A stretch of 46,500 nucleotides of DNA from an uncultured Alistipes sp. (GTDB taxonomy: Bacteria; Bacteroidota; Bacteroidia; Bacteroidales; Rikenellaceae), in contig CAMWYI010000001.1 of assembly GCA_947178455.1 (NCBI GenBank), forward strand, positions 1 to 46,500, written 5' to 3'. The translations under genes and the position numbers were made by a program. Below the pieces are notes generated by a model. That model saw only the letters and a program-made list of their open reading frames with translations, ran no database searches and was not told the DNA's origin. Positions 26,795 through 45,948 of this stretch are shown here, in pieces; within the stretch, counting starts at the first letter, position 1, and every line of letters starts with the position of its first letter.

Positions 26795-26800
26795 CATTTC

Positions 26801-26841: not shown

Positions 26842-26850
26842 ATCAATCAA

Positions 26851-26900
26851 AGAGGCAAGTTTGTGTTTTTGTAGTACAAAAACGTGCCGCCGCTGTTCGG
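26851..26900. other. Putative oriT
   Basis: GGCAAGTTTGT adjoining a perfect inverted repeat GTTTTTGTA-G-TACAAAAAC (26865-26883), just upstream of mobC-relaxase. Position and form are typical, but the nick site is not established. Confidence 0.45.
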
Positions 26901-26939
26901 TGGCAACATCCCGTTGGTCTATTAGCACGAAATCAATCC

Positions 26940-27299
26940 ATGAAACAAATACCGATTAACAAAGGCGGGCGACCTGCCATAAGCGAGGGCCGCCGCAAGA
27001 AATATCTGCTATCGTTACGGCTCGATGCCGAACATTACTTCAAGCTGAAATCGCTTGTCCACACCTCCGGTCATGGAACAGCCGAAGTCCTCCGGCAGTT
27101 GATAGCAGCCGGTCGTGTGCGCGAGCGTCTGCGCCGCGAACATCTGGATTTCATGTCCCAACTCAAAGGTATGGCCCGCAACCTGAACCAACTCACCCGC
27201 CTCGCCCATGCGAAAGGATTTATGGAGATAGTGTCTCGCCATGCAGCTATTGTTGTAAAAATTGAATCCCTGTTAAAGCATCTTCGCGATGATCGGTAA
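26940..27299 (+). CDS. mobC: MobC-type relaxosome accessory protein (RHH)
   Basis: KGGRP N-terminus and LKGMARNLNQLTRLAH (MobC NLNQ motif); overlaps the relaxase start; ATG 26940. Confidence 0.85.
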   Translation: MKQIPINKGGRPAISEGRRKKYLLSLRLDAEHYFKLKSLVHTSGHGTAEVLRQLIAAGRVRERLRREHLDFMSQLKGMARNLNQLTRLAHAKGFMEIVSRHAAIVVKIESLLKHLRDDR

Positions 27300-28371
27300 A
27301 ATTATCGCAGGGTCATCATTCGCAGGGACAGTCGGATATGTCGTAAAGAAACAGTCGCGGATATTGTCAGCCGAGGGTGTAACCCCGCCCGATGTTCGGG
27401 AGATAGTGCAGGATTTCAAAGACCAAACATTATTGAATCCACGTATCAAGAATGCCATCGGGCATATATCCCTTTCGTTTTCTCCGAAAGACAGTGTGCG
27501 AATGACTGACGCTTTGATGCGGGATATTGCCAAGGAATATATGCAGCGCATGGGAATTACCGATACGCAGTATCTGCTGGTGCGACACCTCGACAAACCG
27601 CATCCGCATTGTCATCTAATCTATAATCGGGTAGGAAACAACGGACAAACCATCTCGGACAAGAATATGAAAATCCGCAATGCCAAGGTTTGTCGCGCAT
27701 TGACCGAGAAATACGGGTTGCACCTTGCGCCGGGCAAAGAATCGGTACGTCGGGAACGCTTGCGGGAACCCGACAAAACCAAATACGAAATATACGACGC
27801 AATCAAAACAGCATTGCCTCAGTCTCGAAGCTGGAGTGAATTGGAAAAACATTTGAAAGAGCACGATATTGCTGTGCGCTATAAGTATTGCGGTTCGACC
27901 AATGAAAAACAAAGGGTATTGTTCAGCAAGAACGGGTTCGAATTCTCTGGCTCGAAGATAGATCGGCAATTCAGCTACTCCAAGTTGAACCGGCACTTTG
28001 CACAAGCACAGCAACAAACACCCTATCGGGCGACGCTTGCGAAGGGATTCCATGCAGCCATAAGCAATTATCGGTCGGCATACACCGCCCTATTCGGCAA
28101 TACAGGCGGAAATGGAAATAAAGGGCGAACAGATAATAACATTGTGAATTTTGGTGGAAACATTGGTGTATTGCCGTTGCCGCCCAGCGATTCGCCTGTC
28201 GGATTGTCTGCGGCCCAACTCCAACGCCAACCCGGCGAAAGTCCCGAAGAACATATTGCCCGCATCACAGTACTGCTCAACACTGTCGCCGAAGCAATAG
28301 CGGTAGCAGCGATGGAACAGAAGCGCAAACTGCGAGACCGAAAAGCGAACAAACCAAAAATGAAATTATAA
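27289..28371 (+). CDS. Relaxase/mobilization nuclease (MOB-P-like)
   Basis: N-terminal Tyr (GTVGYV), HISLSFSP, and HUH/3H motif RHLDKPHPHCHLIYNRV. Confidence 0.92.
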   Translation: MIGKIIAGSSFAGTVGYVVKKQSRILSAEGVTPPDVREIVQDFKDQTLLNPRIKNAIGHISLSFSPKDSVRMTDALMRDIAKEYMQRMGITDTQYLLVRHLDKPHPHCHLIYNRVGNNGQTISDKNMKIRNAKVCRALTEKYGLHLAPGKESVRRERLREPDKTKYEIYDAIKTALPQSRSWSELEKHLKEHDIAVRYKYCGSTNEKQRVLFSKNGFEFSGSKIDRQFSYSKLNRHFAQAQQQTPYRATLAKGFHAAISNYRSAYTALFGNTGGNGNKGRTDNNIVNFGGNIGVLPLPPSDSPVGLSAAQLQRQPGESPEEHIARITVLLNTVAEAIAVAAMEQKRKLRDRKANKPKMKL

Positions 28372-29400: not shown

Positions 29401-29970
29401 CTAATCTAATGACTCTGGTTCATCATCTATTGAATCTACATTGTTGGCGTCAAAAGTAAGAAAGATTTCAAGAAATGCAGCTTCTCTATAAAAGTAGTTA
29501 GGATTATCAATTAGTTTATCCTCCATAAAATGAAAACCCCAATTGGCATACTCTTCCATCGTCTGCATTAAAGCATCAACAGCCTTTCTGGGTGTTACTA
29601 ATCCCTTATCAAGAGCTATAAAATCAAAGTCTGTTTTAGCCACTAATGCAGTGAAAATAAATTCTCTTAATTTAGGATATGCTTTACGACCTTTTACGGG
29701 ATCAATATTTCCCCAGAATTGGATGGGTTGTCCAAACGATTTGATTCTTGTACTGTCGTCTATAAGCTTCTTCCTTTGGTCGTAATATAGACCGATAAAG
29801 AACGCAATGATGAAGATTTCATATCCAGCACCAAACAGCTTTCCTTTGGCATTCCCCAAATTAGTAACACCTTTCCCATAATCGCTGAAATTTTTAATTA
29901 TAGACTCTTCATAGCGCTTCTCCCAATTAGGATTACGTCTTGCCCATACTTCATATAGTTTCTCTGCCAT
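29401..29970 (-). CDS. Small protein resembling PbeD / dnd-associated (DndE-like) proteins
   Basis: 189 aa; last gene of the operon, 3 nt after the SMC-like ATPase; LFGAGYEIFIIAFFIGLY and MEEYANWG segments. Family assignment rests on position and loose motif recall. Confidence 0.5.
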   Translation of the reverse strand: MAEKLYEVWARRNPNWEKRYEESIIKNFSDYGKGVTNLGNAKGKLFGAGYEIFIIAFFIGLYYDQRKKLIDDSTRIKSFGQPIQFWGNIDPVKGRKAYPKLREFIFTALVAKTDFDFIALDKGLVTPRKAVDALMQTMEEYANWGFHFMEDKLIDNPNYFYREAAFLEIFLTFDANNVDSIDDEPESLD

Positions 29971-29973
29971 AGG

Positions 29974-32148
29974 TTATTTAATTCTTTCGGTTAATGTTTG
30001 AATTGTTGACAAATCTTCTTCATTGTAGCCGGGGGCCTTCTGTATGCGATATACAAAACATGATAATTGATTTATTTTATCAAAATTCAATTTTCGGGTC
30101 TCTGTTTCACGATCGAATTTCAATAGGTCTTTTGTAAAAATAATACATTGTTTATCAATACCATCAATGATATTATAGAAAATATCCTCTTTGAAATCTC
30201 CGAACGAAGATGTCGGAGCGTCAAAAATCAAAGGATAATCTTCATCTCTCTTTAGCGTGGTGATATTAGAAATGGCGAAAAGAACAGACATATACATTGT
30301 TGTCTTTTGTGCTCCACCCGGATTAGCTATTATAGTGTCATTTGAGCTATAAAGATTTATTTTAGCAGATCCGTCTACAGTTCTCTTTATTCTAATAACA
30401 CCGCGAAAATCATCTGCATTGAGTTTTTTTAAATATATATTAGCCTGTTTTTCAAGGGTCTTAATAAATTCTTCCACATTTCTGTCCTTTGCCGCTTCAA
30501 ATGCTTTCATTATTCGCTCAAGCGTAATATGGACTTTCTGATAGATTCTTACAATTCCATTAGACGGAACAATTTGATTCTGCTTATCTTTTAACTCTTG
30601 TTTCTGTATCTCAAGTTCTTCAAGTCTACGTTTAAGGTCCTGAAAGTCTAATGACGCTCTTTTGCTACTGTCATAGAGTCCTTTGAAATCCTTAAAGTTT
30701 TTGATAAGCATTTCTTCTGTTAGATCAGGTGTTTGAATAAGTAGTTGCATTTTTGAGTCTTCAGCCTCAATCAAGTCTTTATTTACTTTCTCTAACTCCT
30801 GCTTTCTCGTTTGTACAAAAGATAATCTATCGGCAATGACAGTTGCCAATTTAGATAATTCCTGCTCAGTATCGCCACTTAATTGAATACTACGAGTATG
30901 AAGTTCATTTATATATGTGTTTTCAAAAAGTGGTTTTATCGGGGTTTCTTGTTGTTGCACAGATTCTGATTCTTTACGAATATGCCCAAGATATTCATTA
31001 AGTTTGTCAACCATAAAATTATAAGCGTCACTCCCCTTTTCCGCAGGACGACCACAAACTTTACATATTTCATCATCAATCATCTCCTGCATTGTTTTTT
31101 TATCTGGAAGATTCCAAGGGAGAGGAGTCGCATTATTAGCTAATTTTTGTATTTCCTTAAACGCTTCTATCTTCCCTTTCTCGATAGCAATTCGTTCATC
31201 TTCGGCCCTCTGCAATTTACGTTTTTCTCGACTAAGAGCCGAGACCTTTTCTTGATATTCATTTAAAATAGAAGGATATGCACGAAGAATCCACATGTCA
31301 TCAAGCAACATGGCATTATAGTCTAGATAGATACATCCCATTAATTTCTGTTGCTCTATTTTCTTCTGTTCAATTCGGGCATTTATACCTTGAAGATTCT
31401 CACAAACATCCTGATTTTCCTCCAAAATCCTCAGACGAGTTTCATAATCTGAAACAGCCTTCTCTTTTGTGGCAATATTATTTCGTACATCAGAGATTGC
31501 AGACTGCACTTGGATTAAATCAAATTCAAGCTGTTTAATTATCGACTCTTGTTTTTTGTCTTTCCTTAGCTCTTTGGTAACCAGATTGTCAGACTGTTGC
31601 TCAAAATATGAGGTCATCTCAACAAGATCATCGAATTGCTTGATTCCAGAGAATGTGTCAACAAGCGTTTTGAGTGCCGTATTATTGTCGAATACATCTA
31701 ATTCCCGTTCTCCTTTAAAAAGGCAATATCGGCGAATCACCGTATCAAAACATGATTCCAATAATCTTTTCCCATCTTGATTATGCCGTTCCGATCCAAC
31801 AATCTCATAGCCGATGAAAGAAAAATCTCTGGTTCTTACGAAGTTGTCGGATGTTTTTTCAAAAATGAATTTTTTACATATTTCTTTCTCTCCTCCATGC
31901 TCAAAGGTCATAGTGACAGAAACTTCATCACTATCTCCTATCCCTATTTCCGCTTTACGCATTTCTGAGATATTGCTTTCGCTTTTATTGTCCTTACTGG
32001 TGTCAAGCAACCATTCAAGAGCTTCAAAGAAAGTGGTTTTACCATCGCCATTATCGCCAATAACTAAAGTAAGACCGTCAGATAACTCAAAACAGTTTTC
32101 GCCGTAATAACTGCGGAAATTTTTAATAATAATCTTATTTAGTTTCAT
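29974..32148 (-). CDS. Rad50/SbcC/DndD-like coiled-coil ABC ATPase with zinc hook (PbeC-like)
   Basis: IKNFRSY, Walker A GDNGDGKTT, central CKVC, signature-like PGGAQ, Walker B PLIFDAP, long coiled coils. Confidence 0.88.
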   Translation of the reverse strand: MKLNKIIIKNFRSYYGENCFELSDGLTLVIGDNGDGKTTFFEALEWLLDTSKDNKSESNISEMRKAEIGIGDSDEVSVTMTFEHGGEKEICKKFIFEKTSDNFVRTRDFSFIGYEIVGSERHNQDGKRLLESCFDTVIRRYCLFKGERELDVFDNNTALKTLVDTFSGIKQFDDLVEMTSYFEQQSDNLVTKELRKDKKQESIIKQLEFDLIQVQSAISDVRNNIATKEKAVSDYETRLRILEENQDVCENLQGINARIEQKKIEQQKLMGCIYLDYNAMLLDDMWILRAYPSILNEYQEKVSALSREKRKLQRAEDERIAIEKGKIEAFKEIQKLANNATPLPWNLPDKKTMQEMIDDEICKVCGRPAEKGSDAYNFMVDKLNEYLGHIRKESESVQQQETPIKPLFENTYINELHTRSIQLSGDTEQELSKLATVIADRLSFVQTRKQELEKVNKDLIEAEDSKMQLLIQTPDLTEEMLIKNFKDFKGLYDSSKRASLDFQDLKRRLEELEIQKQELKDKQNQIVPSNGIVRIYQKVHITLERIMKAFEAAKDRNVEEFIKTLEKQANIYLKKLNADDFRGVIRIKRTVDGSAKINLYSSNDTIIANPGGAQKTTMYMSVLFAISNITTLKRDEDYPLIFDAPTSSFGDFKEDIFYNIIDGIDKQCIIFTKDLLKFDRETETRKLNFDKINQLSCFVYRIQKAPGYNEEDLSTIQTLTERIK

Positions 32149-32378
32149 ATATTCGAAGTCAAGAAGTTCGACACCTGAGTGTATATTTCCTTTTGTGTAT
32201 ATTGATTTTCATTGCCATCGATAATCATTGCTACAGCTCGTATTGTGGCATTCTCTGAATCGAGGGCATCTGCAATAGTCTCGTCTCCGGTTGGAGTATA
32301 ATCTCCTAACTCAGCCAGTTTGGGGTCGGCCAATACTGCTTGCAGTATTCTGTCTCCATTTGTATAATGAGTAGCCAT
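32145..32378 (-). CDS. Small acidic protein (PbeB-like position)
   Basis: 77 aa; 7 nt after the helicase stop; ATGA overlap with the ATPase start. Confidence 0.7.
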   Translation of the reverse strand: MATHYTNGDRILQAVLADPKLAELGDYTPTGDETIADALDSENATIRAVAMIIDGNENQYTQKEIYTQVSNFLTSNI

Positions 32379-32385
32379 AATGATA

Positions 32386-34656
32386 TTAGTTAAATATTGG
32401 AATCTGGTATTGGTTTAGTATATCATCTAAAACATTTAATGTGTCGTTACAATTTTCAGAAAGCAATGCAAAATCTCGAACACGTCTTATTTCCGCAGAA
32501 ACTAAACTCTTTTCTAACTCATAGCAATCTGGGGCAAAGTTTATTTGTGGTATTACAACGAGGTCGTGAATAATAGCAAATCGTTTGTCGGGGTGTGTGC
32601 GTAAAACACGCCCTCTACGTTGAATAAATTGCCTAGGATTTCCAGTGCTTGCACAGAAGATTGCCAATTCGCTTCGTGGAACGTCAACACCTTCGTCCAA
32701 ACATTTCATAGAAGTTAATACATCGATATCGCCTTTTGCAAAATCAGTCAACATTGCATCTCTGTCGGTAGATTCTGAGGTAAATTGACGTACAACAATA
32801 TGCGAATCAATATCTCTTATAATTCGAGTGTATTCATTGATAAGATGAATAGTATCTTCGTCGTCTTTGATTCGATCTGTCGTATCAAAGATATCTGCAC
32901 CCGGATCATCGGGTTGATTCCCTTCTGGGACATATACTAACGTATATTTTAATGAACCTGTTTTCTCTCGATGTTCTTTTAAAATATCTTCAAATATGCT
33001 CTTTTTATTTTCTGCTTTATGTATAATCTGCTTCCGTTTAAGCAAAAGCCGTTTTAATATCTCACGGCTATCATCATCTTCTCGATTGATTATTTTTGCA
33101 ATCTTCTTCGATAACTCAATGTATTGAACCATCTCCTCATTTGTCAGTTCGACTAAATGTGGATAGTAATAATATTTACACAATGCATTATTCCTAATAG
33201 CCTCTGCCATTGAGTATTCAAAAGTATACACTCCATTGCAACCAAAGAAATCCATTAAGCGAGCATTACCTTCTTCGTCAAACTGACGTTCTGGAGTTGC
33301 AGACAAACCAATTCTTCGTGAATATTTTATATTGTTAAGACGTTTGGCAATGAGTCCGGCTCCCATATTATGGGCTTCGTCAGCTATGAACAATAATTTG
33401 TTCTTCGGGAACTGATTTAATTCTATGAAATTAGCCGGTCGAATAAATGATGCATATGTGGAAATTATCACATAAGATTGCTTATTGTCTGGATTTGAAA
33501 GCTCTAACATTTTTATATTTGCCAATGAGGTTTGCCATCCACTATATTTAGAGCAGACTTTAATTACATTGGTAAAGTTAAATTTTGCACACTCTTTTTC
33601 CCATTGGTCAACAAGAGTGATCGTTGGAACCAGTATAAGGGCTTTATAATAACCTAATCTTTTATAAATTTCAAGTAGGCAGTTTAATGAGGTAATGGTT
33701 TTACCAGTACCAGTTGCCATTGCAAACAGGCCTTTCTGTTGATTTGCTTTCCAGTTCTCAAAAGCTTGAATTTGATAATCTCTTGGGCCAGTCGGATACG
33801 GGAATTGCGGTTCATTGTTTCTTATGACAGCAATCTTATATTCATTGTCTTTGAGTTTATCTAAGATGACCTCCAAACGCTCTTTGGAATTATCCAATGC
33901 TTTGATAATGTGCTTCGGAATATGCTGCTGGCGCCGATTCTTTAATATATTGTATTCCGCTTCAAGTAACTCGGATATTGACTTGATAGGGAAATAATCT
34001 GTAATTCTGGTTTTAACTTTATTCGCTGATAAATATGCAACACTATCATCTTTTTCTTGGAATACATTTTCAAAGTCCTCTTTAATTGCTTTAACTTTTG
34101 CGGCCTCTATATTACCATCCCAATCGCACGATATTGTTAAACTTTCAATATTATCTACGAGTGCAGTTCTGGAGAAATTACATGATCCATCAAAACCGAC
34201 CTTATTAATACCATCAGAAAAAATACCAGATTTAGTATGAGAAATTCCAATGCCGCTTTTCGGTGCTATAATTTTAACCTCAAGGCGATTATGACGTATA
34301 AGCCAAGCTAAACAATCAAAAAAATGTTGGTCTCTCTCTGATAATGTATTTTTTATCTTTTGAATATCAAATATATCAAAATAAGGTATCTCAATATCAT
34401 CGGAGCCTGTTGCGATAGCATTCTTATCTTCATCTGTCAAAATATCATTGACAATGAGTCGCATTTTACCACCATTATAGAGGAATATGGCAAACCCATT
34501 TGCAAGTACACTTATTGCGGAGGAGGAAAAGAACCCAAGCATAAGGTCAAAGTATGTTGCATTGCATAGACAATCCGAGAAGAAACCTATTGGTTCCCAC
34601 TCGGTCCGTGATTTATAACGCCGATGTTCAGGCCATTTGATATCTGATTTTAGCAT
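32386..34656 (-). CDS. PLD-nuclease / SF2 DEAH helicase fusion (PbeA / PT-system restriction enzyme-like)
   Basis: PLD motif HTKSGIFSD..GSCN; helicase motifs RDYQ, MATGTGKT, DEAH, SAT, LDEGVDVP and QRRGRVLR. Confidence 0.9.
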   Translation of the reverse strand: MLKSDIKWPEHRRYKSRTEWEPIGFFSDCLCNATYFDLMLGFFSSSAISVLANGFAIFLYNGGKMRLIVNDILTDEDKNAIATGSDDIEIPYFDIFDIQKIKNTLSERDQHFFDCLAWLIRHNRLEVKIIAPKSGIGISHTKSGIFSDGINKVGFDGSCNFSRTALVDNIESLTISCDWDGNIEAAKVKAIKEDFENVFQEKDDSVAYLSANKVKTRITDYFPIKSISELLEAEYNILKNRRQQHIPKHIIKALDNSKERLEVILDKLKDNEYKIAVIRNNEPQFPYPTGPRDYQIQAFENWKANQQKGLFAMATGTGKTITSLNCLLEIYKRLGYYKALILVPTITLVDQWEKECAKFNFTNVIKVCSKYSGWQTSLANIKMLELSNPDNKQSYVIISTYASFIRPANFIELNQFPKNKLLFIADEAHNMGAGLIAKRLNNIKYSRRIGLSATPERQFDEEGNARLMDFFGCNGVYTFEYSMAEAIRNNALCKYYYYPHLVELTNEEMVQYIELSKKIAKIINREDDDSREILKRLLLKRKQIIHKAENKKSIFEDILKEHREKTGSLKYTLVYVPEGNQPDDPGADIFDTTDRIKDDEDTIHLINEYTRIIRDIDSHIVVRQFTSESTDRDAMLTDFAKGDIDVLTSMKCLDEGVDVPRSELAIFCASTGNPRQFIQRRGRVLRTHPDKRFAIIHDLVVIPQINFAPDCYELEKSLVSAEIRRVRDFALLSENCNDTLNVLDDILNQYQIPIFN

Positions 34657-34658
34657 GG

Positions 34659-35366
34659 TTACAGAATTAATGTTGGCATGTAGTTGATACTCAATTGAGA
34701 ATTAACCATATTTCGTTGGCAATTGGCGAATGTACACCAATGATGGGCCATGGATAAAAAATATGGTTGCCATATTTCCTTTTGAGAATTTCGCAATGCC
34801 GCTTTGTAGTTGCTGTCTGCAACAAACCAATTCTTATAATCAGATTCTGATAAAAAATTAGACAACACAAAATCAAGACCTAAAATAAAATCCATCGGCC
34901 AAATAGGGACTCTGGGCACGGGCATTATCATTAACTCTCCATGTGCTACATTCTTTATACTATGGCCTCCATAAGTTAAATGAAACCACGGATGTATGTA
35001 GTTGGATGAATTGGTGGGATCATAGTCCAAATGAATGGCAGAATGATATATTTTTCCACCTTTTCCATATCCCCTAAAACTAATTTGAAATGCATAGGTA
35101 TTAAAAACATTGTCAATATCTATATCATTAACAGTCTTGTTGTAATCAGTGGTTATGTTAATAACAGCCTCTAATTGTATTAAGCCATAAGGAATAATAT
35201 TGGGAGGGATGTATGGCAGTGTGATTTTGAGTTCCTCTATTTTGCAGGTGTCACTATTTTTAAGCATTCCTACCGCATTCATAATAGGAAATATATTATT
35301 ACACAATTTCTTACTGTAAAGAATTTGTGCAATTCTTGATAGTTCTGTTCGAATGTTTCGTGCCAT
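34659..35366 (-). CDS. Hypothetical protein with HxD...HPxxH...PR motif (DUF2290-like, putative effector)
   Basis: IHLDYDP..IHPWFHLTYGG..PRVPIWPMDFILGLDFVLSNF; 4 nt and 2 nt from its neighbours. Confidence 0.6.
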   Translation of the reverse strand: MARNIRTELSRIAQILYSKKLCNNIFPIMNAVGMLKNSDTCKIEELKITLPYIPPNIIPYGLIQLEAVINITTDYNKTVNDIDIDNVFNTYAFQISFRGYGKGGKIYHSAIHLDYDPTNSSNYIHPWFHLTYGGHSIKNVAHGELMIMPVPRVPIWPMDFILGLDFVLSNFLSESDYKNWFVADSNYKAALRNSQKEIWQPYFLSMAHHWCTFANCQRNMVNSQLSINYMPTLIL

Positions 35367-35370
35367 ATCG

Positions 35371-36483
35371 CTATCTTTTGCCTATGGTTCGTTCCAACTC
35401 TTCCAAAAAGTTACGTTCGATTTCGGCTACATTTTTCCACTCAGATTTGTTCTTTCTTCTTAATGCTGCATCGATGGAAACATATTTAGGTTCTTGCCAT
35501 GGATATAACTTATCCTGCCCATCTATAAGTAATCCGTCGATAGTGTCCATCGGTAATTTATAACCTTGGCATACAGTCCAAAATGCATCGCTTTGGGCTC
35601 TTTCGAGACATTCAGCAGCAACTAAACCGGTGAGTTCGTATCTCTCTTTTATAAGTTCGACTCTTTGTGAAGCACTCATAGATCTTAAACTGTCATGAGA
35701 TATGTTAGCACTCCACCACTTTTCAATTGACCACATCCACCATCGTTCCCATCCCTCTGAAAATACACCTTGATATTTAGCAGAGTCCAGTTGTCCCAAT
35801 AATTGAATCCAATCGTTAGATTTGGCTATATCAACACCTAATTTGGCCGCCAAAGTCTGAATATCTATAAGTAACCCTTGATGTTCCAGCAACTCGTTTA
35901 TTATGAAACTTGCAATCGTGTGCGTTGGTGTACCAATAAGGTTATTAAGTTCGGCAACAAATCTGGTGTCAATATTTTCAATGTCTGCGTGTAATATATT
36001 ATTAAGACTATCAGGCGCCGTATGGTTATTATCGATTATAATTTTATATCCTTCGGCCAAAGCGTACAATTTAGACGATATTTCATCGAATCGCTTATTA
36101 CATGTCTCTTTGTCTATACACATGTCAAACAAATCAGCGCCGGTTGTCTCCAATAGACTGACCAGCTTTTCGTTGGCAGAAAAAAGAATTATCGGGAAGC
36201 TGCATAACTTGCCCTCTTTTTGTCTTGTCCTGATTTCTTGTGCTAACGATGTTCCTCTAAAATCAGCTCGTATATTCTCTACATTAGGCAAATCACACAA
36301 ACCTAAATCCAGAATAAGACCATCTATTTCATTGGATCTATCCTGAATGTATTTCAGTTGAGATTCCCATGTGCCCTGATGTTGTTGAGCATTGATATCT
36401 AAAGCCTCTTTATTAAATCCTTTAACCTTTGCTTGCGAATTTTCAAGCTTGTCGTCATCAATGTAAATATACTTTTTTGTCAT
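35371..36483 (-). CDS. Response-regulator receiver domain with unknown C-terminal domain
   Basis: Acidic pocket YIDDD, phospho-acceptor D59 (LILDL), S102 (ILFSA), K125; directly after the histidine kinase. Confidence 0.82.
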   Translation of the reverse strand: MTKKYIYIDDDKLENSQAKVKGFNKEALDINAQQHQGTWESQLKYIQDRSNEIDGLILDLGLCDLPNVENIRADFRGTSLAQEIRTRQKEGKLCSFPIILFSANEKLVSLLETTGADLFDMCIDKETCNKRFDEISSKLYALAEGYKIIIDNNHTAPDSLNNILHADIENIDTRFVAELNNLIGTPTHTIASFIINELLEHQGLLIDIQTLAAKLGVDIAKSNDWIQLLGQLDSAKYQGVFSEGWERWWMWSIEKWWSANISHDSLRSMSASQRVELIKERYELTGLVAAECLERAQSDAFWTVCQGYKLPMDTIDGLLIDGQDKLYPWQEPKYVSIDAALRRKNKSEWKNVAEIERNFLEELERTIGKR

Positions 36484-36486
36484 TGT

Positions 36487-38628
36487 TTATTTGTTTTTAG
36501 GTATTCTGATTTCAATACACGTTGAAAAACCAGCAGTCGGTTCTACGACTTTTATAGTTCCTTTATAACTGGTAATAATATCTTTAACTATTTTGAGTCC
36601 TAATCCCGTTCCGGTTAATTGCTCATTCTGTGGAGCATCGAAACTTGCAGGCATCGATGTGGAGAAAAAGGCATTGAACACGCGCTCCCTGTTTTGCTCT
36701 GGTATACCATCTCCATTATCGTTGAAACGAACAAAAACATAGTTGCTATCTATATTGCCTATCTCTAATAAGATACGACCGGCTGTTCTTGCCCTGCGAA
36801 TGGCTTTGCGTGAGTTAGAATAGAGATTGAATAAAATTGAAGACCATTCTGATTTATGCATTGGGATAGTGTACACATCGAAATTATACTCGTCTGTATC
36901 AAATGTAATATTGTTAAATCCCAGGTCATTCGCAATAGTATTCTGAAACGTGTCGACAACCTCTAATATATCTATTGGCGCTTTCTCTCTATTTGTGTTT
37001 TGAGATATTGTCGCACTGAAAAAACGAGTATAGCTGAATAGCTCCTCGCAGTATTGTTTTAACAGATTGACAGATGTTAATGTATCAGGCGATGTTATAT
37101 TGTTTTTTAATGTGTCTATCTCTCCATAAATAGCCGGTTTATATTGTTTTATTTCATGTGTAAATTCGCCGATGGTTAATCCTAAACCAGCTAGAACTCT
37201 TAACATTCCAGCCTCCTCTATTAGCTTGTTTATTTTTCTGAGGACGTATCGCTTTTTATTTTCGTGTTCCGAACATGGATTGTTGATTAAATATTCAACT
37301 TCCCTTATAATACTATGTTCCGACTGTTCGTCTTCTTGAGAATTTTGGGTATAGTCATCCTCGTTTTTCGATTCCTTTAATAACGCTATTTTTTCAGAAA
37401 AGCGTTCCTTGGATTTAACAAGGGCCTTGTGTACAAAATCAGTAAGCTGGCGAAAAGCCTCGTTTTCTATCAAGCCTTCACGACTGGCGGTCTCTTCAAA
37501 TTCATTGCCATTTGGGTCAGATATCTCTACGAATCCGAATAGGTTTTTATTGCTTAACGGCACATTCGTACTACCAGATTCACTTGACCATCGACGGTCT
37601 ATTTGTGTCCAATCATTGGTTGGTTCGCCGTAAGGAAGTACGCGAAATCCATTGCGATAGAGACGCACGCCACTCGCGGTTTTGGATAATTCATTGATAT
37701 TTCTCAATTCTATATTAGAAATCTTCCCACCGTAGTATTCAGGACGGTTATATATGAAATAGTATATCTTAAAGTGAATATCCGACAAATTTGAATATGA
37801 GAGCTGGTCTTTGTCGTAATATATTGAAAAATTATCATTTATACCCAAGCTATCGCTTATGACAGATATTTGGCCTATATGATTACTGTCGATATAGCCA
37901 TTTATAACGGCTAGTGATTTGGTGAAAATAGAGATGTTCTCGTCGTTTACAATAGTCGTAATTCCATCAGTCGTATATCTGAATATAGCCTTGAACAAAT
38001 TTTCATCCTGTTTGGCATAATTATTTCTTTGGCTTTTGTCGGACAAATAATCCGGCTGGAACAGCTCTATTATATATCTGTATACTCTATTTATAGCAGC
38101 ATTACTCCATCCTTCTCTCAGATTATCAATAATTAATGTGGTCCCTTCATTTCTCTCTTTTTCGACTGATACTAATGGGAATGTTATGGCTGTGATATCT
38201 CTGTCGGCTTCGTATTGATTCCAATCTATCGATAAGCGCAAAGCCATATCATCGTTCAGCGTCTGCGTTATAATAGTGAGCTTCTCTCCCAATCTTTGTG
38301 TCGCGAAGCGCCCAATTCCTTTCCTGCCGGCTTTGGCTCTATGGTATTTTGCTGAGATGGGGTTGTGTATTTTATCTGTTGAGGATATACGCATAAACCC
38401 ATTTAGCAACTGTTCCTGCGACATTCCAGCCCCATTATCTGTAATAATCAGAGTTCCTCGCGGTTCTGTTGTGTTAATAAATTCCACATCTACAACTGAA
38501 GCATCTGCGTCGTATGCATTTTTTATCAATTCCGAAACGGCAGTTTCGGCACGCCCAACCAGCTCATATCCTAATCGCTGGATTAAACCCGCATCGACAG
38601 TAAAACCAATATTTATATTTTTACTCAT
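36487..38628 (-). CDS. MORC/MutL-type GHKL ATPase fused to a C-terminal histidine kinase
   Basis: N-terminal ELIKNAYDA, DNGAGM, GRKGIGRF and GTTL. C-terminal H-box FTHEIK (H491), N-box NLYSNS, G1 DNGDGI, F-box FNAFFST and G2 GTGLGL. No TM segments. Confidence 0.9.
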   Translation of the reverse strand: MSKNINIGFTVDAGLIQRLGYELVGRAETAVSELIKNAYDADASVVDVEFINTTEPRGTLIITDNGAGMSQEQLLNGFMRISSTDKIHNPISAKYHRAKAGRKGIGRFATQRLGEKLTIITQTLNDDMALRLSIDWNQYEADRDITAITFPLVSVEKERNEGTTLIIDNLREGWSNAAINRVYRYIIELFQPDYLSDKSQRNNYAKQDENLFKAIFRYTTDGITTIVNDENISIFTKSLAVINGYIDSNHIGQISVISDSLGINDNFSIYYDKDQLSYSNLSDIHFKIYYFIYNRPEYYGGKISNIELRNINELSKTASGVRLYRNGFRVLPYGEPTNDWTQIDRRWSSESGSTNVPLSNKNLFGFVEISDPNGNEFEETASREGLIENEAFRQLTDFVHKALVKSKERFSEKIALLKESKNEDDYTQNSQEDEQSEHSIIREVEYLINNPCSEHENKKRYVLRKINKLIEEAGMLRVLAGLGLTIGEFTHEIKQYKPAIYGEIDTLKNNITSPDTLTSVNLLKQYCEELFSYTRFFSATISQNTNREKAPIDILEVVDTFQNTIANDLGFNNITFDTDEYNFDVYTIPMHKSEWSSILFNLYSNSRKAIRRARTAGRILLEIGNIDSNYVFVRFNDNGDGIPEQNRERVFNAFFSTSMPASFDAPQNEQLTGTGLGLKIVKDIITSYKGTIKVVEPTAGFSTCIEIRIPKNK

Positions 38629-38636
38629 AGTCGTAT

Positions 38637-39743
38637 CTATATAAAACAGTTAGCACAAGGTATTTCATCATAGTCATCAAACATATCAACCAAAAGGCCG
38701 CTGGTAGATTTTGCTTTTAACTCGGCTTGCTTCTTGATATGGTCGAGTTTGATTTGTCGTACACGCTCCGGACGGCTTAACTCTTCAAGGGTTTCTCCTT
38801 GAATCCATGTATAGCCATCCTTTTCATATTCCATAGCTTTTTTATACAGTTCTGGATGTTGTTCCAAAAGCCATATCCATTCTATACGTTGCTGGAAAAA
38901 GCAGAAATAACATCCCGAGCGACTCCTGCTATATGTCCCAGTCTTTCCATCAACTTCAAATGGAATAGGATTATAATAGGCAGGGATACCAACACCGCTG
39001 TCTTCTAAGATTTTGAAAATATCAGCCTTTACCAATACATCTTCATTATCAATTAAAGGAAACTCATCTAGCTTTCCGACTGGATAATCGGTTGTTTTGA
39101 GATACTCAAATACGACACGATTAAATGTTTTAACACTTAAATCTAACAGCGCATTGATTTTACGGCTAAGTAAAAAACTCTTCGAGGTTGGAATCTCAAT
39201 AATCTGCAGTGCTTCATCTAATATATCTTTGGATGCATATTGTTTATACAAAGTTGCTATCGTAGATATATTGCTATTATGCAAGACATTATGAACTACA
39301 TCTACACTCCAAATATTTTTCCTGAATGGAAATATAGCCTGAATGTTCGGTTTAGTTGAAACATATCCTTCTCTGTCCTCATCGCCACGAATTCCCACAT
39401 ACGATATTGCGGGGGTATCACCGACAAACTTCTCAAATTCTGCCAATTTCATCTTTTGGGTACACCAACGTGCTTGCGGAGACGGCAAATAACCTCCACT
39501 AATTTTTAAGAAGTGGTCAAAAGGTGTTGGCTCCGGACTATCTTTGGCAGCAATCAGCAACTCAATGTGCCCTAATAATGATTTCAGATTCTCAATGAGT
39601 TTCTCGGTCTCTGCTAATTCGCATTTTGTGTCAGAATTATAATATTCTATTGGAAGCTGCGGATATAATCGCTTCAAATAGATTGCCAGTGCTGCGCTAT
39701 CTTTACCACCAGATATACCTAAAACATGTCTTACTTTATTCAT
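38637..39743 (-). CDS. sspD: PAPS-reductase-family protein SspD (DNA phosphorothioation)
   Basis: PP-loop SGGKDS; RWCT, GIRGDE and RSGCYFCFFQ motifs; C-terminal CANC; follows DUF4007 and ATPase genes. Confidence 0.85.
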   Translation of the reverse strand: MNKVRHVLGISGGKDSAALAIYLKRLYPQLPIEYYNSDTKCELAETEKLIENLKSLLGHIELLIAAKDSPEPTPFDHFLKISGGYLPSPQARWCTQKMKLAEFEKFVGDTPAISYVGIRGDEDREGYVSTKPNIQAIFPFRKNIWSVDVVHNVLHNSNISTIATLYKQYASKDILDEALQIIEIPTSKSFLLSRKINALLDLSVKTFNRVVFEYLKTTDYPVGKLDEFPLIDNEDVLVKADIFKILEDSGVGIPAYYNPIPFEVDGKTGTYSRSRSGCYFCFFQQRIEWIWLLEQHPELYKKAMEYEKDGYTWIQGETLEELSRPERVRQIKLDHIKKQAELKAKSTSGLLVDMFDDYDEIPCANCFI

Positions 39744-42700
39744 CGTTCAGTTTCTTTTTAAGGATAGTTAATAAGACATATGCATCTATCCCATCGTCTC
39801 CTGACAGTAGTTTATCTATTTGTTTTTCGAGTCTTTGAGCAATATCATTTTTTTTCTTGTCTAGTCGAACTATCCGAGGAGAGGCTGCACCATCATTGGA
39901 TATCATCTCAACTCGAATAAACTTGTCATGTTGCCCGAGATTGCTATTGCTGATATCAATAAATTTATCCAGTTCTTTGAATAAATGCACCAAATTGTCA
40001 ATCAAATATGCTTCTTCTTCATCAAGAAGATTCCCGAGCTGCTTATCCAATATCACATATGCCAAAGATTGATACCAAGTAATTTTATCTGTTGATTGTG
40101 ATAATATTCGGTTAAGTATTGTTTTCTGCCTATCAGTTAACAGATATGTTTTGACACATGAATAGCGTTTTTCTAATTCCTTTTTATATTGAAAGAAATC
40201 AGAAGACTTCAAGTTTAATGCTTCAATAAGTGCATTTTCAATACGGGATACAAGGTTAACATAGCAACTGCGAAGCTCTCGAATAGCATTCTGTAACAAA
40301 TCGACATAGCTCCGTAAAACTTCATCGTTATTGGCAATCACACTATCTTTGAATCCTAATGCTCGTGGCAAGTCCTCAAAAAAGGTCTTTTCCGGATCTT
40401 TGGCAGTAGAAAGTACATTGCGAAATTGTAGAGTTGTCTTTTTTAATCGCTTTGTCTGCTTTGTATATTTGTTGAGTTTTTTATAGAATACCAAAAATGG
40501 CCTGATAGTTTCGATAAGACTCGCTGTCGTAAACTCATCATCCTGCGAGAGACTTAATGCTTCTCGATATTTATTGAATAAATCTAACTTGACACCCTCA
40601 ACATTAAAAGCTTTGACCTGAAATCCAGCCGGTGATTTCTGGATAATATCCAACACTTCTCTATTGAGCATCGGAATAAATACTCCATTTTCATTATAGA
40701 GGGAATAGTCATTCTTTTTAATAATGAGATATGTTGGTATCCACAAATCAATTACACCCTGCTTTAATTTGAAAGGCCGAGTCCTAAGTATATTAATAAG
40801 CTCCGCTAACTTGCAAGCTTTCTCCTTACTACTCTCCAAAAACGCTTCACTAACCTTCCAGAGGTCATTGAACGACTCTTCCTGCGGGGCATTTAACTCA
40901 TATTCGCCAAGAAACTTCCTATGAATACCGGTATTTTTTAATAGCGTCAGGTATATTGTTTTCTCAGGCTTGAACATAGTGTCTTCAAATCCCAAATTGT
41001 ATTCAGCTGAATTCTCTAATAAGTGAGATAAGTAATTGACACGAGCCAATGACATTGCTCCGCTTGGCTTATGTTTATTCACCATCTCATTGATGTAGGT
41101 TGGAGTGGAATAATAGACCTCATCGCATATTTGAGATAAGAACTTATTAAAGCTCGTTTTAGAATCAATAGAAAACTCATTACCTCGATATATCCAAACT
41201 ACATCTTGACTATATCTAAACAGAGCATCCAGCACACTGGTATTGAGCAAATTTCGTTCGTGATTCATTAGGGCATTTAATTCTCGATGAGCAACCTTAT
41301 CTGTACTATCAACTACATTCTGAACATAGGCTAATTTGTCCAACATCCAGATATGATCAATAATCTTATCTGTTTGTTTGAAATAGACATACAATATAGC
41401 CTCTTCAATATTACTGGTTTCCTGCTTTAACTTATCTAATGTTAGTGACTCATTAATGATAAGATTGACATATCCGTCAACTTCATTTTGAGGCTGACGG
41501 TTAATTGGATAGTCAGATATTATATATTCAAAATATCGTGGAGTGCCTTTACGGAAATATGTTGCATTTGCAAACTCGACGGGAAGATTAAAGTTCTCAA
41601 GAAGTTTATCAACAACATCTTTAGACCGAGGGACAATTCCGGACGCTTTTAGTAACTCTCCTTCTATATTAACATCTGTTCCTTCAAACAGAATATATTG
41701 TGACTTATATTCCGCATAACGAATTATTTTATATTGCGTCAGCAAATCAATCACAGTTTCAGGATCCTCAATATCTAACGCATTTTTTGCATATATGGAT
41801 AAATCTTTTTTAGAGCAACGTATCCCTGCATTGCCGAAAAGATTCATCATTCCAATGGTTTTGACTAGTTTAATTGCATTTTCTGCAATATCTGCATCGA
41901 ATAAACTTTCTATTCGTTCTAATGCGACTCTAATACCTGTCCATGCAGCTGTATCAGGATTGATCTCAGAAAGAAATGAATAAAAATTATATATATCGTA
42001 ATCATATACATCAGCCAAACTATATGTCGTGTGTTTGCCGTCTTTAAATGATTGCAGAGAACTTTCGCCCGTAGATTCAAGAAACGAAAAAAGAGTACGC
42101 TCATTTTGGCCATAGCGCTGAATAGACAATGTTAAAGCCTGAGCAGCGAACAAGTCCAATGGATACAAACAAGCTGCTGTATCATCGTACTCAATTGATG
42201 AACTGGCGAACTTCGTACTTCGTGCTAAGTCATATATAGTTTTAAATCCTTTATTGAGCATTGGTCTGGGAGTACGTCCAATGCGTTTGGCTGCTAAATA
42301 TAGCAGTTGCTCAACAGGTTCATTAAATACAATTTCCTGGAAGCGGCCTTTTACTTTATTCCATTCATGCCGTTGTGATTCATTTAACGCGTGAGCGTAT
42401 GAATTGAAATTCTGATGAAGAGTTGTAAGTAAGATAGCATTTCGCTTCTCACTATTCATAAACTCAGTAAACTTCTGAAATATATACAGCTCTTTCTCTG
42501 GATTATTCTTTGCAGCATATTCTAATAGTTTGCCGAATTCGTCTATTACAATAAAAACAAATTCGTCTTGTTTCTCTGCTTTTGCGAAAAACCTCGATAG
42601 GTTCTCAAACAGATTTTCAGATATGGCATTTGGAAAGAGATGCTCGGTCAGCAATCTGTGTAGTGAGGTGTAGTCGCCAACAATCTTATGAAACCGAAAT

Positions 42701-42957
42701 CTACTATATCCATTAAATTGCCCTTTGTTTGACAACAAGATATGTGAATTATTTACCAAAGTATCTTCTAAAGCTAATAGGAAACTGGATTTACCTGTTC
42801 CATATGAACCTATAATATTAAATGAATGGATGCCTGTGTTGAATGAATCAACAATATGCCCAACTACACCAAGGGCATTTGGCGTAACAATATAGCTTTT
42901 CGGCTTGAATGTACTTTGCTCGATATTTATTGAGAGGGTATATTTCATATTACTCAT
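39736..42957 (-). CDS. sspC: Large P-loop ATPase SspC
   Basis: Walker A GSYGTGKS, Walker B IVIDEFGK, LHQ..EWNKVKGRF, YPL and QNERTLFSFL; located between DUF4007 and PAPS reductase. Confidence 0.82.
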   Translation of the reverse strand: MSNMKYTLSINIEQSTFKPKSYIVTPNALGVVGHIVDSFNTGIHSFNIIGSYGTGKSSFLLALEDTLVNNSHILLSNKGQFNGYSRFRFHKIVGDYTSLHRLLTEHLFPNAISENLFENLSRFFAKAEKQDEFVFIVIDEFGKLLEYAAKNNPEKELYIFQKFTEFMNSEKRNAILLTTLHQNFNSYAHALNESQRHEWNKVKGRFQEIVFNEPVEQLLYLAAKRIGRTPRPMLNKGFKTIYDLARSTKFASSSIEYDDTAACLYPLDLFAAQALTLSIQRYGQNERTLFSFLESTGESSLQSFKDGKHTTYSLADVYDYDIYNFYSFLSEINPDTAAWTGIRVALERIESLFDADIAENAIKLVKTIGMMNLFGNAGIRCSKKDLSIYAKNALDIEDPETVIDLLTQYKIIRYAEYKSQYILFEGTDVNIEGELLKASGIVPRSKDVVDKLLENFNLPVEFANATYFRKGTPRYFEYIISDYPINRQPQNEVDGYVNLIINESLTLDKLKQETSNIEEAILYVYFKQTDKIIDHIWMLDKLAYVQNVVDSTDKVAHRELNALMNHERNLLNTSVLDALFRYSQDVVWIYRGNEFSIDSKTSFNKFLSQICDEVYYSTPTYINEMVNKHKPSGAMSLARVNYLSHLLENSAEYNLGFEDTMFKPEKTIYLTLLKNTGIHRKFLGEYELNAPQEESFNDLWKVSEAFLESSKEKACKLAELINILRTRPFKLKQGVIDLWIPTYLIIKKNDYSLYNENGVFIPMLNREVLDIIQKSPAGFQVKAFNVEGVKLDLFNKYREALSLSQDDEFTTASLIETIRPFLVFYKKLNKYTKQTKRLKKTTLQFRNVLSTAKDPEKTFFEDLPRALGFKDSVIANNDEVLRSYVDLLQNAIRELRSCYVNLVSRIENALIEALNLKSSDFFQYKKELEKRYSCVKTYLLTDRQKTILNRILSQSTDKITWYQSLAYVILDKQLGNLLDEEEAYLIDNLVHLFKELDKFIDISNSNLGQHDKFIRVEMISNDGAASPRIVRLDKKKNDIAQRLEKQIDKLLSGDDGIDAYVLLTILKKKLNDE

Positions 42958-43819
42958 TCAAGTAGTAGTTATTGAGTATTGTATCCGTTGATACATTTCC
43001 TCTAATTTGTAATTCTTTAATACCAGCCACATCTGAAAATATAATCTGATTCGGGTATTTGGCACTCAATTGTTTGACAATGCTTAATAGATCATTGTTA
43101 GTTAAACAGAAGATTAATGCCAGATCCTTCATAGACTCAAATGATATACTTTTGCTATCCGGGAATTGGACAAGCAATGCATATAAAAATATATTGACAG
43201 GCACAATATTACGAGTATCATAATTAAAAATATACATGCTACTATCTGTTTCCTGAATTAAATTCAAAGGAGTTAATAGCATGTTTGATTCCTCAATATT
43301 TCCACTGCTATAGCTGCAATAGTTATGTAACAAAACTCCTATGTCTCGTTTAATGGTATTTTCGTTATATAGATTTTTATAACTAGTACCGTCAAAACAC
43401 AAATGCTTGATGAAATTTTGTAATTTTACCTTATCTATCAAATTGCGCTGTCTATGATAATCGATAAATGTGCTTGAGTAGATTGTTGCATAATCTTCAT
43501 TTATAAGATTGAAATGTAGCAGCCATAGACTACCCATATCTTCAAAGAAAGGATCGTATCCATTCTCATTATCCATGAGTTTATACGCCAATGAAGTTAA
43601 TCCCTCTTCGGGATTCAATAGACCAAATGCTCGCATCCAGAACTTAATGGAGTTAACCATATTTTTACCAACGCCAAGGCGAACAACCGCGTCTTCATCA
43701 TTGAAGTTATTCCCTGCAATCACAAAATCATATCCACGTTTTAACCAATGAGATTTGCATGCAAATGATTCATGACCTGAGAATACAGGTTTCTTCATAT
43801 ATAAATCTTTATTTATCAT
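42950..43819 (-). CDS. sspB: DUF4007 protein SspB (nicking nuclease of Ssp systems)
   Basis: FSGHESF..WLKRG..LGVGKNMVNSIKFW..DPFFED..LWLLH DUF4007 signature. Confidence 0.88.
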   Translation of the reverse strand: MINKDLYMKKPVFSGHESFACKSHWLKRGYDFVIAGNNFNDEDAVVRLGVGKNMVNSIKFWMRAFGLLNPEEGLTSLAYKLMDNENGYDPFFEDMGSLWLLHFNLINEDYATIYSSTFIDYHRQRNLIDKVKLQNFIKHLCFDGTSYKNLYNENTIKRDIGVLLHNYCSYSSGNIEESNMLLTPLNLIQETDSSMYIFNYDTRNIVPVNIFLYALLVQFPDSKSISFESMKDLALIFCLTNNDLLSIVKQLSAKYPNQIIFSDVAGIKELQIRGNVSTDTILNNYYLNE

Positions 43820-44006
43820 TTATCAATTCCTTAATATCAATATTTAACAATTTGGCGATATTGACTAACGTATCTAATGTCGGTTGAGTCGCATTTGAGC
43901 ACCATTTAGAAATAGTAGATGGGTCTTTTCCAAGTTGTTCTGCCAACCATTTTCCTGTTCTTTTCTGCTCAACAAGAACTAACTTCAGTCGATTAACATC
44001 TTTCAT
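43809..44006 (-). CDS. XRE/Cro HTH transcriptional regulator heading the defence operon
   Basis: NRLKLVLVEQKRTGKWLAEQLGKDPSTISKWCSNATQP; overlaps the sspB start. Confidence 0.9.
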   Translation of the reverse strand: MKDVNRLKLVLVEQKRTGKWLAEQLGKDPSTISKWCSNATQPTLDTLVNIAKLLNIDIKELINDK

Positions 44007-44308: not shown

Positions 44309-44310
44309 AT

Positions 44311-44852: not shown

Positions 44853-44853
44853 C

Positions 44854-45795: not shown

Positions 45796-45930
45796 CCGCA
45801 TTACATCCTGCCGCGAAAATAATTTCATCCAAAAATTCGCTGAAAATAATTTGCCGTATATTTACAATGAAGCGAACAATCGGCATAGATAACAATATAA
45901 TAAGCAAATAATTAGCGATTTACACTTCAT

Positions 45931-45948
45931 TTCTGCATCGGCAAATAA
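45931..45948 (+). repeat. attR (displaced copy of the mnmE 3' end)
   Basis: TTC TGC ATC GGC AAA TAA = FCIGK*, in non-coding DNA at the end of the island. Confidence 0.85.

What the first reader, a model, noticed from the sequence alone, without database searches (positions are those of the whole stretch)
29401..44006. Candidate new defence system: Ssp phosphorothioation core + GHKL-histidine kinase phosphorelay + Pbe-like nuclease/helicase/SMC effector in one operon
Seen: 11 co-oriented AT-rich genes in which every junction is an overlap or a gap of at most 8 nt. Order: XRE, DUF4007, ATPase, PAPS reductase, GHKL-HK, receiver, 235-aa unknown, PLD-helicase, 77 aa, SMC-like ATPase, 189 aa. Established: DUF4007 + ATPase + PAPS reductase is SspBCD (single-strand DNA phosphorothioation), normally paired with SspE or SspFGH. 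PLD-helicase + small + SMC ATPase + small matches PbeABCD, described as the partner of the double-strand Dnd system. Inference: an Ssp writer is coupled to a Pbe-type effector, with an apparently intact two-component module between them, giving a possible signal-gated PT-dependent anti-phage system. I know of no experimental characterisation of this arrangement but cannot exclude that it appears in bioinformatic surveys.
Basis: partly seen in the sequence, partly recalled or inferred. Interest (0 to 1): 0.92.

Follow-up and report, generated by a model that had tools for sequence, protein, structure and literature searches.

The report
Sulfur-DNA defence island with swappable cassette
A mobile 23-kb element carries genes that likely mark the host's DNA with sulfur (Ssp), an anti-virus module (Pbe) so far described with other marking genes, and between them a swappable three-gene kinase cassette that likely adds a second, separate defence layer.

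Summary
The 11 co-oriented genes are real and intact, at 36% GC in a 57% GC genome, on an integrative element inserted at mnmE. They are not one signal-gated system. The conserved backbone is SspBCD plus PbeABCD (a CxC-ATPase/DndE-type module). In the same 400 genomes of the host's order, 18 have SspC, 18 have PbeA and 12 have both (0.8 expected); the other 6 PbeA lie beside DndCDE. The slot between sspD and pbeA is variable: empty, a DndB-like pair, DUF262 plus kinase, an ATPase triplet, or this GHKL-histidine kinase/receiver/235-aa trio. The trio is its own module. Of 80 loci, 47 sit beside an adenine methylase, 23 beside Ssp, 2 beside Dnd and only 11 beside Pbe; phosphorothioate-linked copies form one clade. 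It resembles Ambrosia but has no methylase or HNH nuclease; the 235-aa His/Asp protein matches no solved fold. I found no paper describing Ssp-Pbe or a phosphorothioate-linked trio (8 searches; key supplements unseen). This scan noted both pairings before on other genomes. Verdict: new variant of known kinds, function untested.

The parts
22923..22942 (+). left attachment site: 3' end of the tRNA-modification GTPase gene (mnmE-like; name inferred from its sequence)
   Evidence: 16/20 repeat with 45929-45948, both reading FCIGK-stop; only other match of 15 or more in the window
23140..24261 (+). tyrosine integrase of the element
   Evidence: Pfam Phage_integrase, Phage_int_SAM_5, Arm-DNA-bind_5
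26766..28371 (+). MobC/NikA and relaxase: mobilisation module
   Evidence: Pfam NikA-like, MobC, Relaxase; NCBIfam Bacteroid_MobB below cut-off
29401..29970 (-). 189 aa, likely PbeD (DndE-cognate of the CxC ATPase)
   Evidence: ESM Atlas 0.97 to clusters carrying PF27807 DNA_S_mod_dnd_assoc_4 in 11-15% of members; conserved last position; no PADLOC hit
29974..32148 (-). 724 aa CxC-clade ABC ATPase (PbeC)
   Evidence: PADLOC PbeC E=1.9e-18; invariant Walker A, C362/C365 and DAP Walker B
32145..32378 (-). 77 aa small protein, likely PbeB by position
   Evidence: conserved between pbeA and the ATPase in relatives; no HMM hit
32386..34656 (-). PbeA: HKD (PLD) nuclease fused to an SF2 helicase
   Evidence: PADLOC PbeA 1080 bits; H140/K142, Walker A and DExH conserved in 32 of 32 aligned
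34659..35366 (-). 235 aa His/Asp protein, predicted effector of the trio; no solved fold matched; distant DUF2290 hint
   Evidence: D114, H129, R152, P157 invariant and H112 99% in 70 sequences; model pLDDT 90; no fold match; 1234 relatives at 50% clustering
35371..36483 (-). 370 aa receiver protein with a C-terminal part of about 220 aa of unassigned fold
   Evidence: REC fold Z 14.8; D59 invariant, D9/D10/S102/K125 at least 90%
36487..38628 (-). 713 aa MutL/MORC-type GHKL ATPase fused to a histidine kinase
   Evidence: Pfam HATPase_c_3 28-155 and HATPase_c 597-711; E33, N37, H491, N601, D637 invariant in 52
34657..38637 (-). variable slot between sspD and pbeA, here filled by the trio
   Evidence: replaced exactly in contigs of runs X3 and X9; slot sizes 1 to 4394 nt in relatives
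38637..39743 (-). SspD, PAPS-reductase-type PP-loop enzyme
   Evidence: PADLOC E=6.7e-86; SGGKDS, GCxxC and terminal CxxC in 71 of 71 homologues
39736..42957 (-). SspC ATPase
   Evidence: PADLOC SspC 1214 bits
42950..43819 (-). SspB (DUF4007)
   Evidence: Pfam E=2.4e-66; PADLOC E=2.6e-88
43809..44006 (-). XRE regulator, likely operon control protein
   Evidence: Pfam HTH_3; 97% identical in L134
44290..45795 (+). HipB-like HTH plus split HipA, cargo of the same element
   Evidence: Pfam HTH_3, Couple_hipA, HipA_C
45929..45948 (+). right attachment site of the element
   Evidence: a contig of run X3 leaves the window at 45948

Best explanation
This is a mobile defence island whose conserved backbone, SspBCD plus PbeABCD, likely works as a phosphorothioate (PT) self-mark and its reader, and whose variable middle slot here holds a separate kinase trio that likely forms a second mark-dependent defence layer. 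Shown: gene content, intact catalytic motifs, the integrative element, recurrent Ssp-Pbe linkage, the swappable slot, and the trio's partner switching. Inferred step 1: SspBCD, with a housekeeping cysteine desulfurase encoded elsewhere, puts single-strand PT on host DNA. Inferred step 2: the CxC ATPase and DndE-like protein scan DNA, and PbeA blocks or nicks unmarked invader DNA, as Pbe does with Dnd in archaea. Inferred step 3: the MORC-type ATPase of the trio senses DNA state; the kinase passes phosphate from H491 to D59; and the receiver licenses the 235-aa His/Asp protein, most likely a nuclease. The trio is not needed for Ssp-Pbe.
For: Same 400 order genomes: SspC 18, PbeA 18, both 12, in 10 families; 11 of the 12 linked in one locus, the 12th with both at contig ends; the 6 PbeA-only genomes all have adjacent DndCDE. 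SspC and PbeA distances correlate (rho 0.86, n=24) as well as SspC and SspB do (0.77, n=47), and better than SspC and the kinase (0.51, n=23). Slot contents vary. Against L134, synonymous divergence is about 0.3 in ssp genes and pbeA but 2 or more in the trio, with dN/dS 0.04-0.16 where computable. Trio: kinase 80, receiver 76, 235-aa protein 73 of 80 loci; partner N6-methylase 47, Ssp 23, DndCDE 2, never methylase plus Ssp. PT-linked kinases form one clade (FastTree 0.999) among methylase-linked ones. Distant kinase relatives (about 25% identity) carry HNH or metallo-beta-lactamase genes in the slot after the receiver, which fits an effector role for the 235-aa protein. Pbe needs PT in archaea (PMC6459918, passages); Ambrosia needs its receiver Asp (bioRxiv 2025.09.30.679545, section 8).
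Against: No PT, expression or phage data. Ten gut isolates with minimal dnd or ssp sets showed no PT (PMC12914056, passage). Defence genes cluster without cooperating, and PMC10853773 questions Pbe as a PT-specific partner; PMC6459918 found Pbe also near methylases and weakly co-evolving with DndCD. Distance correlations are inflated by shared host ancestry, and kin are not independent. One trio with full flanks has only a DndB-like neighbour (L049). The nuclease role rests on conserved residues and gene position only. Close relatives mix Pbe at 89% DNA identity with Ssp at 70%, so the two do recombine. One PbeA beside Ssp is truncated (L097).
Confidence: 0.6

Rival explanations
1. Three independent defence modules share a hotspot and a promoter; neither Pbe nor the trio reads the Ssp mark.
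For: The slot takes many unrelated cassettes. Trio-bearing SspC do not form a clade. The trio pairs with chemically different writers. PMC10853773 (section 16) reports CxC modules occurring apart from Dnd.
Against: All 18 PbeA in 400 genomes are in genomes with a PT writer. 72 of 80 trio loci have an adjacent writer, methylase and Ssp exclude each other, and writer type follows the kinase tree.
Confidence: 0.2
2. One reading: one system in which the kinase relay gates the Pbe nuclease-helicase.
For: Tight coupling of all 11 genes; same order in L009, L010, L015, L017, L134; Pbe on the opposite strand next to Ssp plus trio in 6 more loci.
Against: Ssp-Pbe occurs without the trio in 14 of 15 SspC-anchored Pbe loci; the trio lacks Pbe in 69 of 80 loci; the trio is replaced cleanly in near-identical strains.
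Confidence: 0.08
3. The trio is a regulator that raises expression or activity of the neighbouring writer (ssp or methylase) on infection; the 235-aa protein is an accessory, not a nuclease.
For: Ambrosia is induced on infection and its receiver is said to have a winged helix (bioRxiv 2025.09.30.679545, section 8). PMC7464106 speculates on kinase control of SspE. The trio almost always sits beside a writer.
Against: No helix-turn-helix match for the receiver's C-terminal part in Pfam (the fold searches barely tested that part). Invariant His/Asp/Arg in the 235-aa protein look catalytic. It holds the position taken by nucleases in related cassettes.
Confidence: 0.12

Closest known systems
SspABCD-SspE and SspABCD-SspFGH (not read directly; as described in PMC10853773, PMC12914056, PMC12707154 passages)
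   Same: SspB, SspC and SspD in the usual order with intact motifs; desulfurase supplied from elsewhere is accepted practice in these papers.
   Different: No SspE or SspFGH in the operon; no DUF1524 match in the 81% complete genome; SspD is 368 aa with an insertion; partners are Pbe and variable cassettes.
DndCDEA-PbeABCD of Haloterrigena jeotgali (PMC6459918) = CxC ABC ATPase/DndE system (PMC10853773)
   Same: HKD-helicase, small protein, CxC ATPase and DndE-like protein in the same order; linked to a PT writer.
   Different: The writer is Ssp (single-strand PT), not Dnd; no dndCDE found in this genome. This could explain some of the 320 of 553 'solitary' pbeAC reported in 2019.
Ambrosia (AbrR, AbrA-D) of Pseudomonas aeruginosa (bioRxiv 10.1101/2025.09.30.679545)
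   Same: XRE, DNA-modification writer, HSP90-like ATPase/histidine kinase, receiver, then a candidate effector; 47 of 80 relatives pair with an N6-adenine methylase.
   Different: PT writer instead of methylase; 235-aa unknown instead of HNH. A cassette with Ambrosia's gene content (kinase, 209-aa receiver, HNH, N6 methylase; L144) has a kinase only 25% identical to this one.
paraMORC HEF_HK / Response_reg_2 pair (PMC8011034) and paraMORCs (PMC2292703)
   Same: Double-GHKL kinase plus receiver beside restriction-modification genes.
   Different: Those go mainly with C5 methylases; no PF19191 or PF19192 hit here; a third conserved gene and PT linkage.
Helicase-DUF2290 defence system (Rousset 2022, seen only as cited in PMC10952713 and bioRxiv 2024.10.26.620412)
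   Same: The 235-aa family has weak DUF2290 hints: Pfam E=0.063 in 2 of 70 members; Atlas 0.88 to a cluster with 15% DUF2290.
   Different: Below every threshold; partner is a kinase relay, not a helicase.

Membership tests
SspBCD PT writer | adjacent sspB, sspC, sspD | tested here: met
   PADLOC E=2.6e-88, 0, 6.7e-86; overlapping genes
SspBCD PT writer | intact PP-loop and Cys motifs in SspD, Walker A in SspC | tested here: met
SspBCD PT writer | cysteine desulfurase available (sspA or substitute) | tested here: inconclusive
   none in the element; class V aminotransferases on other contigs, best on C74; use by Ssp untested
SspBCD PT writer | PT in genomic DNA | not testable with these tools
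   needs LC-MS or PT-seq
SspABCD-SspE / SspABCD-SspFGH | linked sspE or sspFGH | tested here: not met
   no such PADLOC hit among the 11 genes; no PF07510 in the genome, 81% complete
PbeABCD (CxC-DndE module) | HKD nuclease-SF2 helicase (PbeA) | tested here: met
PbeABCD (CxC-DndE module) | CxC-type ABC ATPase (PbeC) | tested here: met
   PADLOC E=1.9e-18; invariant C362/C365
PbeABCD (CxC-DndE module) | small protein (PbeB) and DndE cognate (PbeD) | tested here: inconclusive
   position and size fit; Atlas lead to PF27807; no PADLOC hit; no profile match to two canonical DndE
DndCDEA-PbeABCD as published | Dnd writer as partner | tested here: not met
   tblastn with DndC, DndD, DndE, DndB found only a weak DndC match on SspD itself
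PbeABCD (CxC-DndE module) | PT-dependent block of virus replication | not testable with these tools
   needs phage assay
Ambrosia | GHKL ATPase/histidine kinase plus receiver with phospho-Asp | tested here: met
Ambrosia | N6-adenine methylase in the cluster | tested here: not met
   none among the 11 genes; no tblastn match to two partner methylases in the genome
Ambrosia | HNH endonuclease after the receiver | tested here: not met
   no HNH family among those listed for 70 members; profile comparison with the HNH of L144 probability 0.7%
Ambrosia | sequence homology to AbrB, AbrC, AbrD | not testable with these tools
   accessions are in a table image and closed supplements
HEF_HK / Response_reg_2 | PF19191 and PF19192 domains | tested here: inconclusive
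   no hit; presence of these two models in the library copy not checked
BREX type 4 | PglZ and BrxL in the cluster | tested here: not met
   no such hit among the 11 genes; features as in PMC12839542 passage
DUF2290 | Pfam PF10053 above cut-off | tested here: inconclusive
   E=0.063 in 2 of 70; Atlas lead under 0.9

The most novel reading that the evidence does not exclude
PbeABCD is a third restriction partner of single-strand Ssp phosphorothioation, and the kinase trio is a portable mark-reading phosphorelay that switched once from adenine methylation to phosphorothioate and fires a nuclease of a new fold; the sspD-pbeA slot is a hotspot of further unknown PT-dependent effectors.
Probability: 0.35. 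Interest if true: 0.82.

Novelty: new variant of a known kind. Interest (0 to 1): 0.6.

Why it matters
Ssp systems without SspE or SspFGH and Pbe modules without Dnd are both listed as orphans in the literature read; this pairing would join them and is common in the host's order (12 of 18 Ssp genomes sampled). Natural strains differ only in the slot, so the dependence of each layer on the sulfur mark can be tested cleanly. The trio would show how one sensor-effector module changes the DNA mark it depends on, and the 235-aa family (over 1200 clusters) has no assigned fold or function. The island rides a mobilisable element in gut bacteria and may limit phage infection and gene transfer there.

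Tried and rejected
Fold searches of the 235-aa model: Foldseek no match at E<=0.001; VIA best Z 4.4, none at 5 or more; weak E2/RWD-like rows (Z 3.2-3.5) are not evidence. PDB sequence searches for the 235-aa, receiver and 189-aa profiles gave nothing useful. Complex prediction receiver plus 235-aa protein: no verdict, score 0.01. No longer fused forms of the 235-aa family found, weak evidence. I recalled DUF2290 as part of Azaca; the papers read place it in Helicase-DUF2290 instead. No XRE found upstream of the methylase in 30 methylase-first loci with two queries, low sensitivity. No receiver relative in viral contigs. No RNA holder listed. Sigma-70 promoter and terminator scans at chance level. 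'SMC' label rejected for CxC. The first tree attempt and first distance run timed out and were redone with faster settings. Krishnan 2020 (NAR 48:10045) is not held and the supplement of PMC10853773 could not be read; either may already list Ssp-CxC neighbourhoods. PMC7641774 was opened by a wrong id and is irrelevant.
Full report
Observation. The operon is 36% GC, the host flank 60% and the genome 57%. It sits in a 23-kb element that begins at the 3' end of an mnmE-like gene: the last 20 bases of that gene recur at 45929-45948 (16 of 20, same reading), and the element carries an integrase, MobC and a relaxase. Homologues point to a Bacteroidales-type host (inference). The 235-aa gene was found in 2 of 301 genomes of the host's family, this one included, as expected of mobile cargo.

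Gene identities. PADLOC gives SspB, SspC, SspD and PbeA strongly and PbeC weakly. The 724-aa ATPase has an invariant CxxC at mid-coil (10 of 10), so it is the CxC clade that PMC10853773 (section 16 read) equates with PbeC, not SMC. The 189-aa protein has an Atlas lead to a dnd-associated family but no PADLOC or DndE profile match; the 77-aa protein is assigned by position only. The 713-aa protein has an N-terminal MutL/MORC-type GHKL domain and a C-terminal kinase, with E33, N37, H491, N601 and D637 invariant in 52 sequences. The 370-aa protein has a receiver fold with invariant D59; its C-terminal 220 residues were barely tested by the fold searches. The 235-aa protein folds confidently (pLDDT 90), matches no solved structure, keeps H112, D114, H129 and R152 and has 1234 relatives at E<=0.001 among 50% representatives.

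The trio is its own module. Of the best 80 of 536 genome loci with a kinase relative, 76 have the receiver and 73 the 235-aa protein. Neighbours: an Eco57I-like N6-adenine methylase in 47, SspBCD in 23, DndCDE in 2; none has both methylase and Ssp. Of the other 8, five are cut by a contig end on at least one side (one with a type III methylase), one has a type ISP fragment, one is a lone kinase, and one with full flanks has only a DndB-like gene. Pbe is present in 11 of 80. In a kinase tree (81 sequences: 77 of the 80, dropping three split or partial ones, plus four added; FastTree, midpoint root) all Ssp-, Dnd- and Pbe-linked kinases form one clade with support 0.999 among methylase-linked ones. 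This suggests one switch from a methyl to a sulfur partner; the direction rests on the midpoint root.

Ssp plus Pbe is the backbone. In the same 400 genomes of the order (own genome excluded), SspC was found in 18 and PbeA in 18, both in 12, against 0.8 expected (kin are not independent, but the 12 span 10 families). Eleven of the 12 are linked in one locus; the twelfth has both at contig ends. The six PbeA-only genomes all have dndCDE next to pbeA. Across 32 SspC-anchored loci from order and phylum samples, 15 carry PbeA (one truncated), 3 the trio, 1 both, 2 SspFGH and 1 is BREX type 4; no gene scanned downstream of sspD hit SspE, and five loci end close to sspD. Pairwise distances correlate SspC-PbeA 0.86 (n=24), SspC-SspB 0.77 (47), kinase-receiver 0.65 (22), SspC-kinase 0.51 (23); host ancestry inflates all of these.

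The slot. Between sspD and pbeA relatives have 1-12 nt (5 loci) or a cassette. Among 26 close metagenome relatives of pbeA (near-clonal, not independent), 19 show sspD: 13 hold a 176-aa gene plus DndB-like gene, 2 a DUF262 gene plus Ser/Thr kinase, 2 an ATPase triplet, 1 nothing and 1 (L134) the trio. Contigs of two animal-gut runs join 34656/7 to 38637/8 with 1780 or 2065 other bases between. Even against L134, synonymous divergence is 0.28-0.35 in sspBCD and pbeA but 2.0-2.5 or saturated in the trio, so the trio was exchanged between sister elements. Trio-bearing SspC do not group.

Mechanism. Most likely (0.6): SspBCD marks host DNA with PT, using a desulfurase from elsewhere; Pbe acts on unmarked DNA, as it does with Dnd in archaea (PMC6459918, passages); the trio is a separate layer in which the GHKL module senses DNA state and a His-to-Asp relay licenses the 235-aa protein, probably a nuclease, since more distant cassettes put HNH or metallo-beta-lactamase genes in that place. 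All three functional steps are inferred. Rivals: mere co-location (0.2), the trio as regulator of the writer (0.12), kinase-gated Pbe (0.08).

Comparison with what is known. Ambrosia (bioRxiv 2025.09.30.679545, passages and section 8) is a tested XRE-methylase-kinase-receiver-HNH system; I learnt of it from earlier notes of this scan and read it myself. PMC8011034 (parts 1-2 of 7) and PMC2292703 (passages) describe paraMORC kinases and paraMORCs near restriction-modification genes. PMC12707154, PMC12914056, PMC12839542 and PMC7464106 (passages) list Pbe only with Dnd and do not mention this trio in the passages found; PMC8569181 has no 'pbe' or 'sspBCD'. Searches turned up no listing or read passage describing Ssp-Pbe or a PT-linked trio; several listed papers were seen as listings only. 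Krishnan 2020, Xiong 2020 and the supplements of PMC10853773 and of the Ambrosia preprint were not seen and may bear on novelty. Earlier notes of this scan reached similar readings on other genomes; they are not counted as support.

Verdict. Observation confirmed; interpretation partly supported. New variant of known kinds: an apparently undescribed Ssp-Pbe pairing with a cassette hotspot, here holding an Ambrosia-like relay with an effector of unassigned fold. Interest 0.6.

Noticed in passing
L116:8224-10008 and 12 similar loci; L090, L097, L104: A 176-aa unknown plus a DndB-family protein is the commonest filling of the sspD-pbeA slot; DndB-like genes beside Ssp rather than Dnd.
   Followed up: partly
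L088:8220-11797, L089, L129, L133: A three-gene cassette (about 549 aa unknown, 365 aa P-loop ATPase with a weak BrxC/D match, 278 aa unknown) fills the same slot; no PADLOC match: candidate unknown defence module.
   Followed up: partly
L125:6967-9023, L136: DUF262-only protein plus Ser/Thr kinase in the slot.
   Followed up: partly
L084, L085, L086, L091, L102, L103, L108, L109, L112: Other GHKL/MORC-type genes without a kinase (about 600-820 aa), some with helicase and PLD genes, repeatedly follow sspD in Bacteroidota.
   Followed up: partly
L144:5992-11094 (Bacteroides finegoldii plasmid NZ_OY725905.1): Kinase, 209-aa receiver, HNH and N6 methylase: Ambrosia-like gene content outside Gammaproteobacteria.
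   Followed up: partly
L143:3646-8780 (Hymenobacter volaticus plasmid): Methylase, GHKL kinase, 227-aa unknown, metallo-beta-lactamase-fold gene: a further effector variant of the kinase cassette.
   Followed up: no
hits H6-H16: A distant double-GHKL kinase (25% identity) occurs on 11 Campylobacter plasmids, one listed with a response regulator.
   Followed up: no
L024: A contig labelled Synechococcus carries a Bacteroidota-type ssp plus kinase and receiver; possible misbinning or transfer.
   Followed up: no
window 24275-26214: RhuM-family gene and a 315-aa unknown follow the integrase; RhuM also flanks pbeD in many relatives.
   Followed up: no
window 26500-26800: A short unlisted ORF that looks like an excisionase-type helix-turn-helix gene lies before mobC (seen; not scanned).
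   Followed up: no
window 44290-45795: HipB-like HTH plus split HipA at the element's right end, possibly stabilising it.
   Followed up: no
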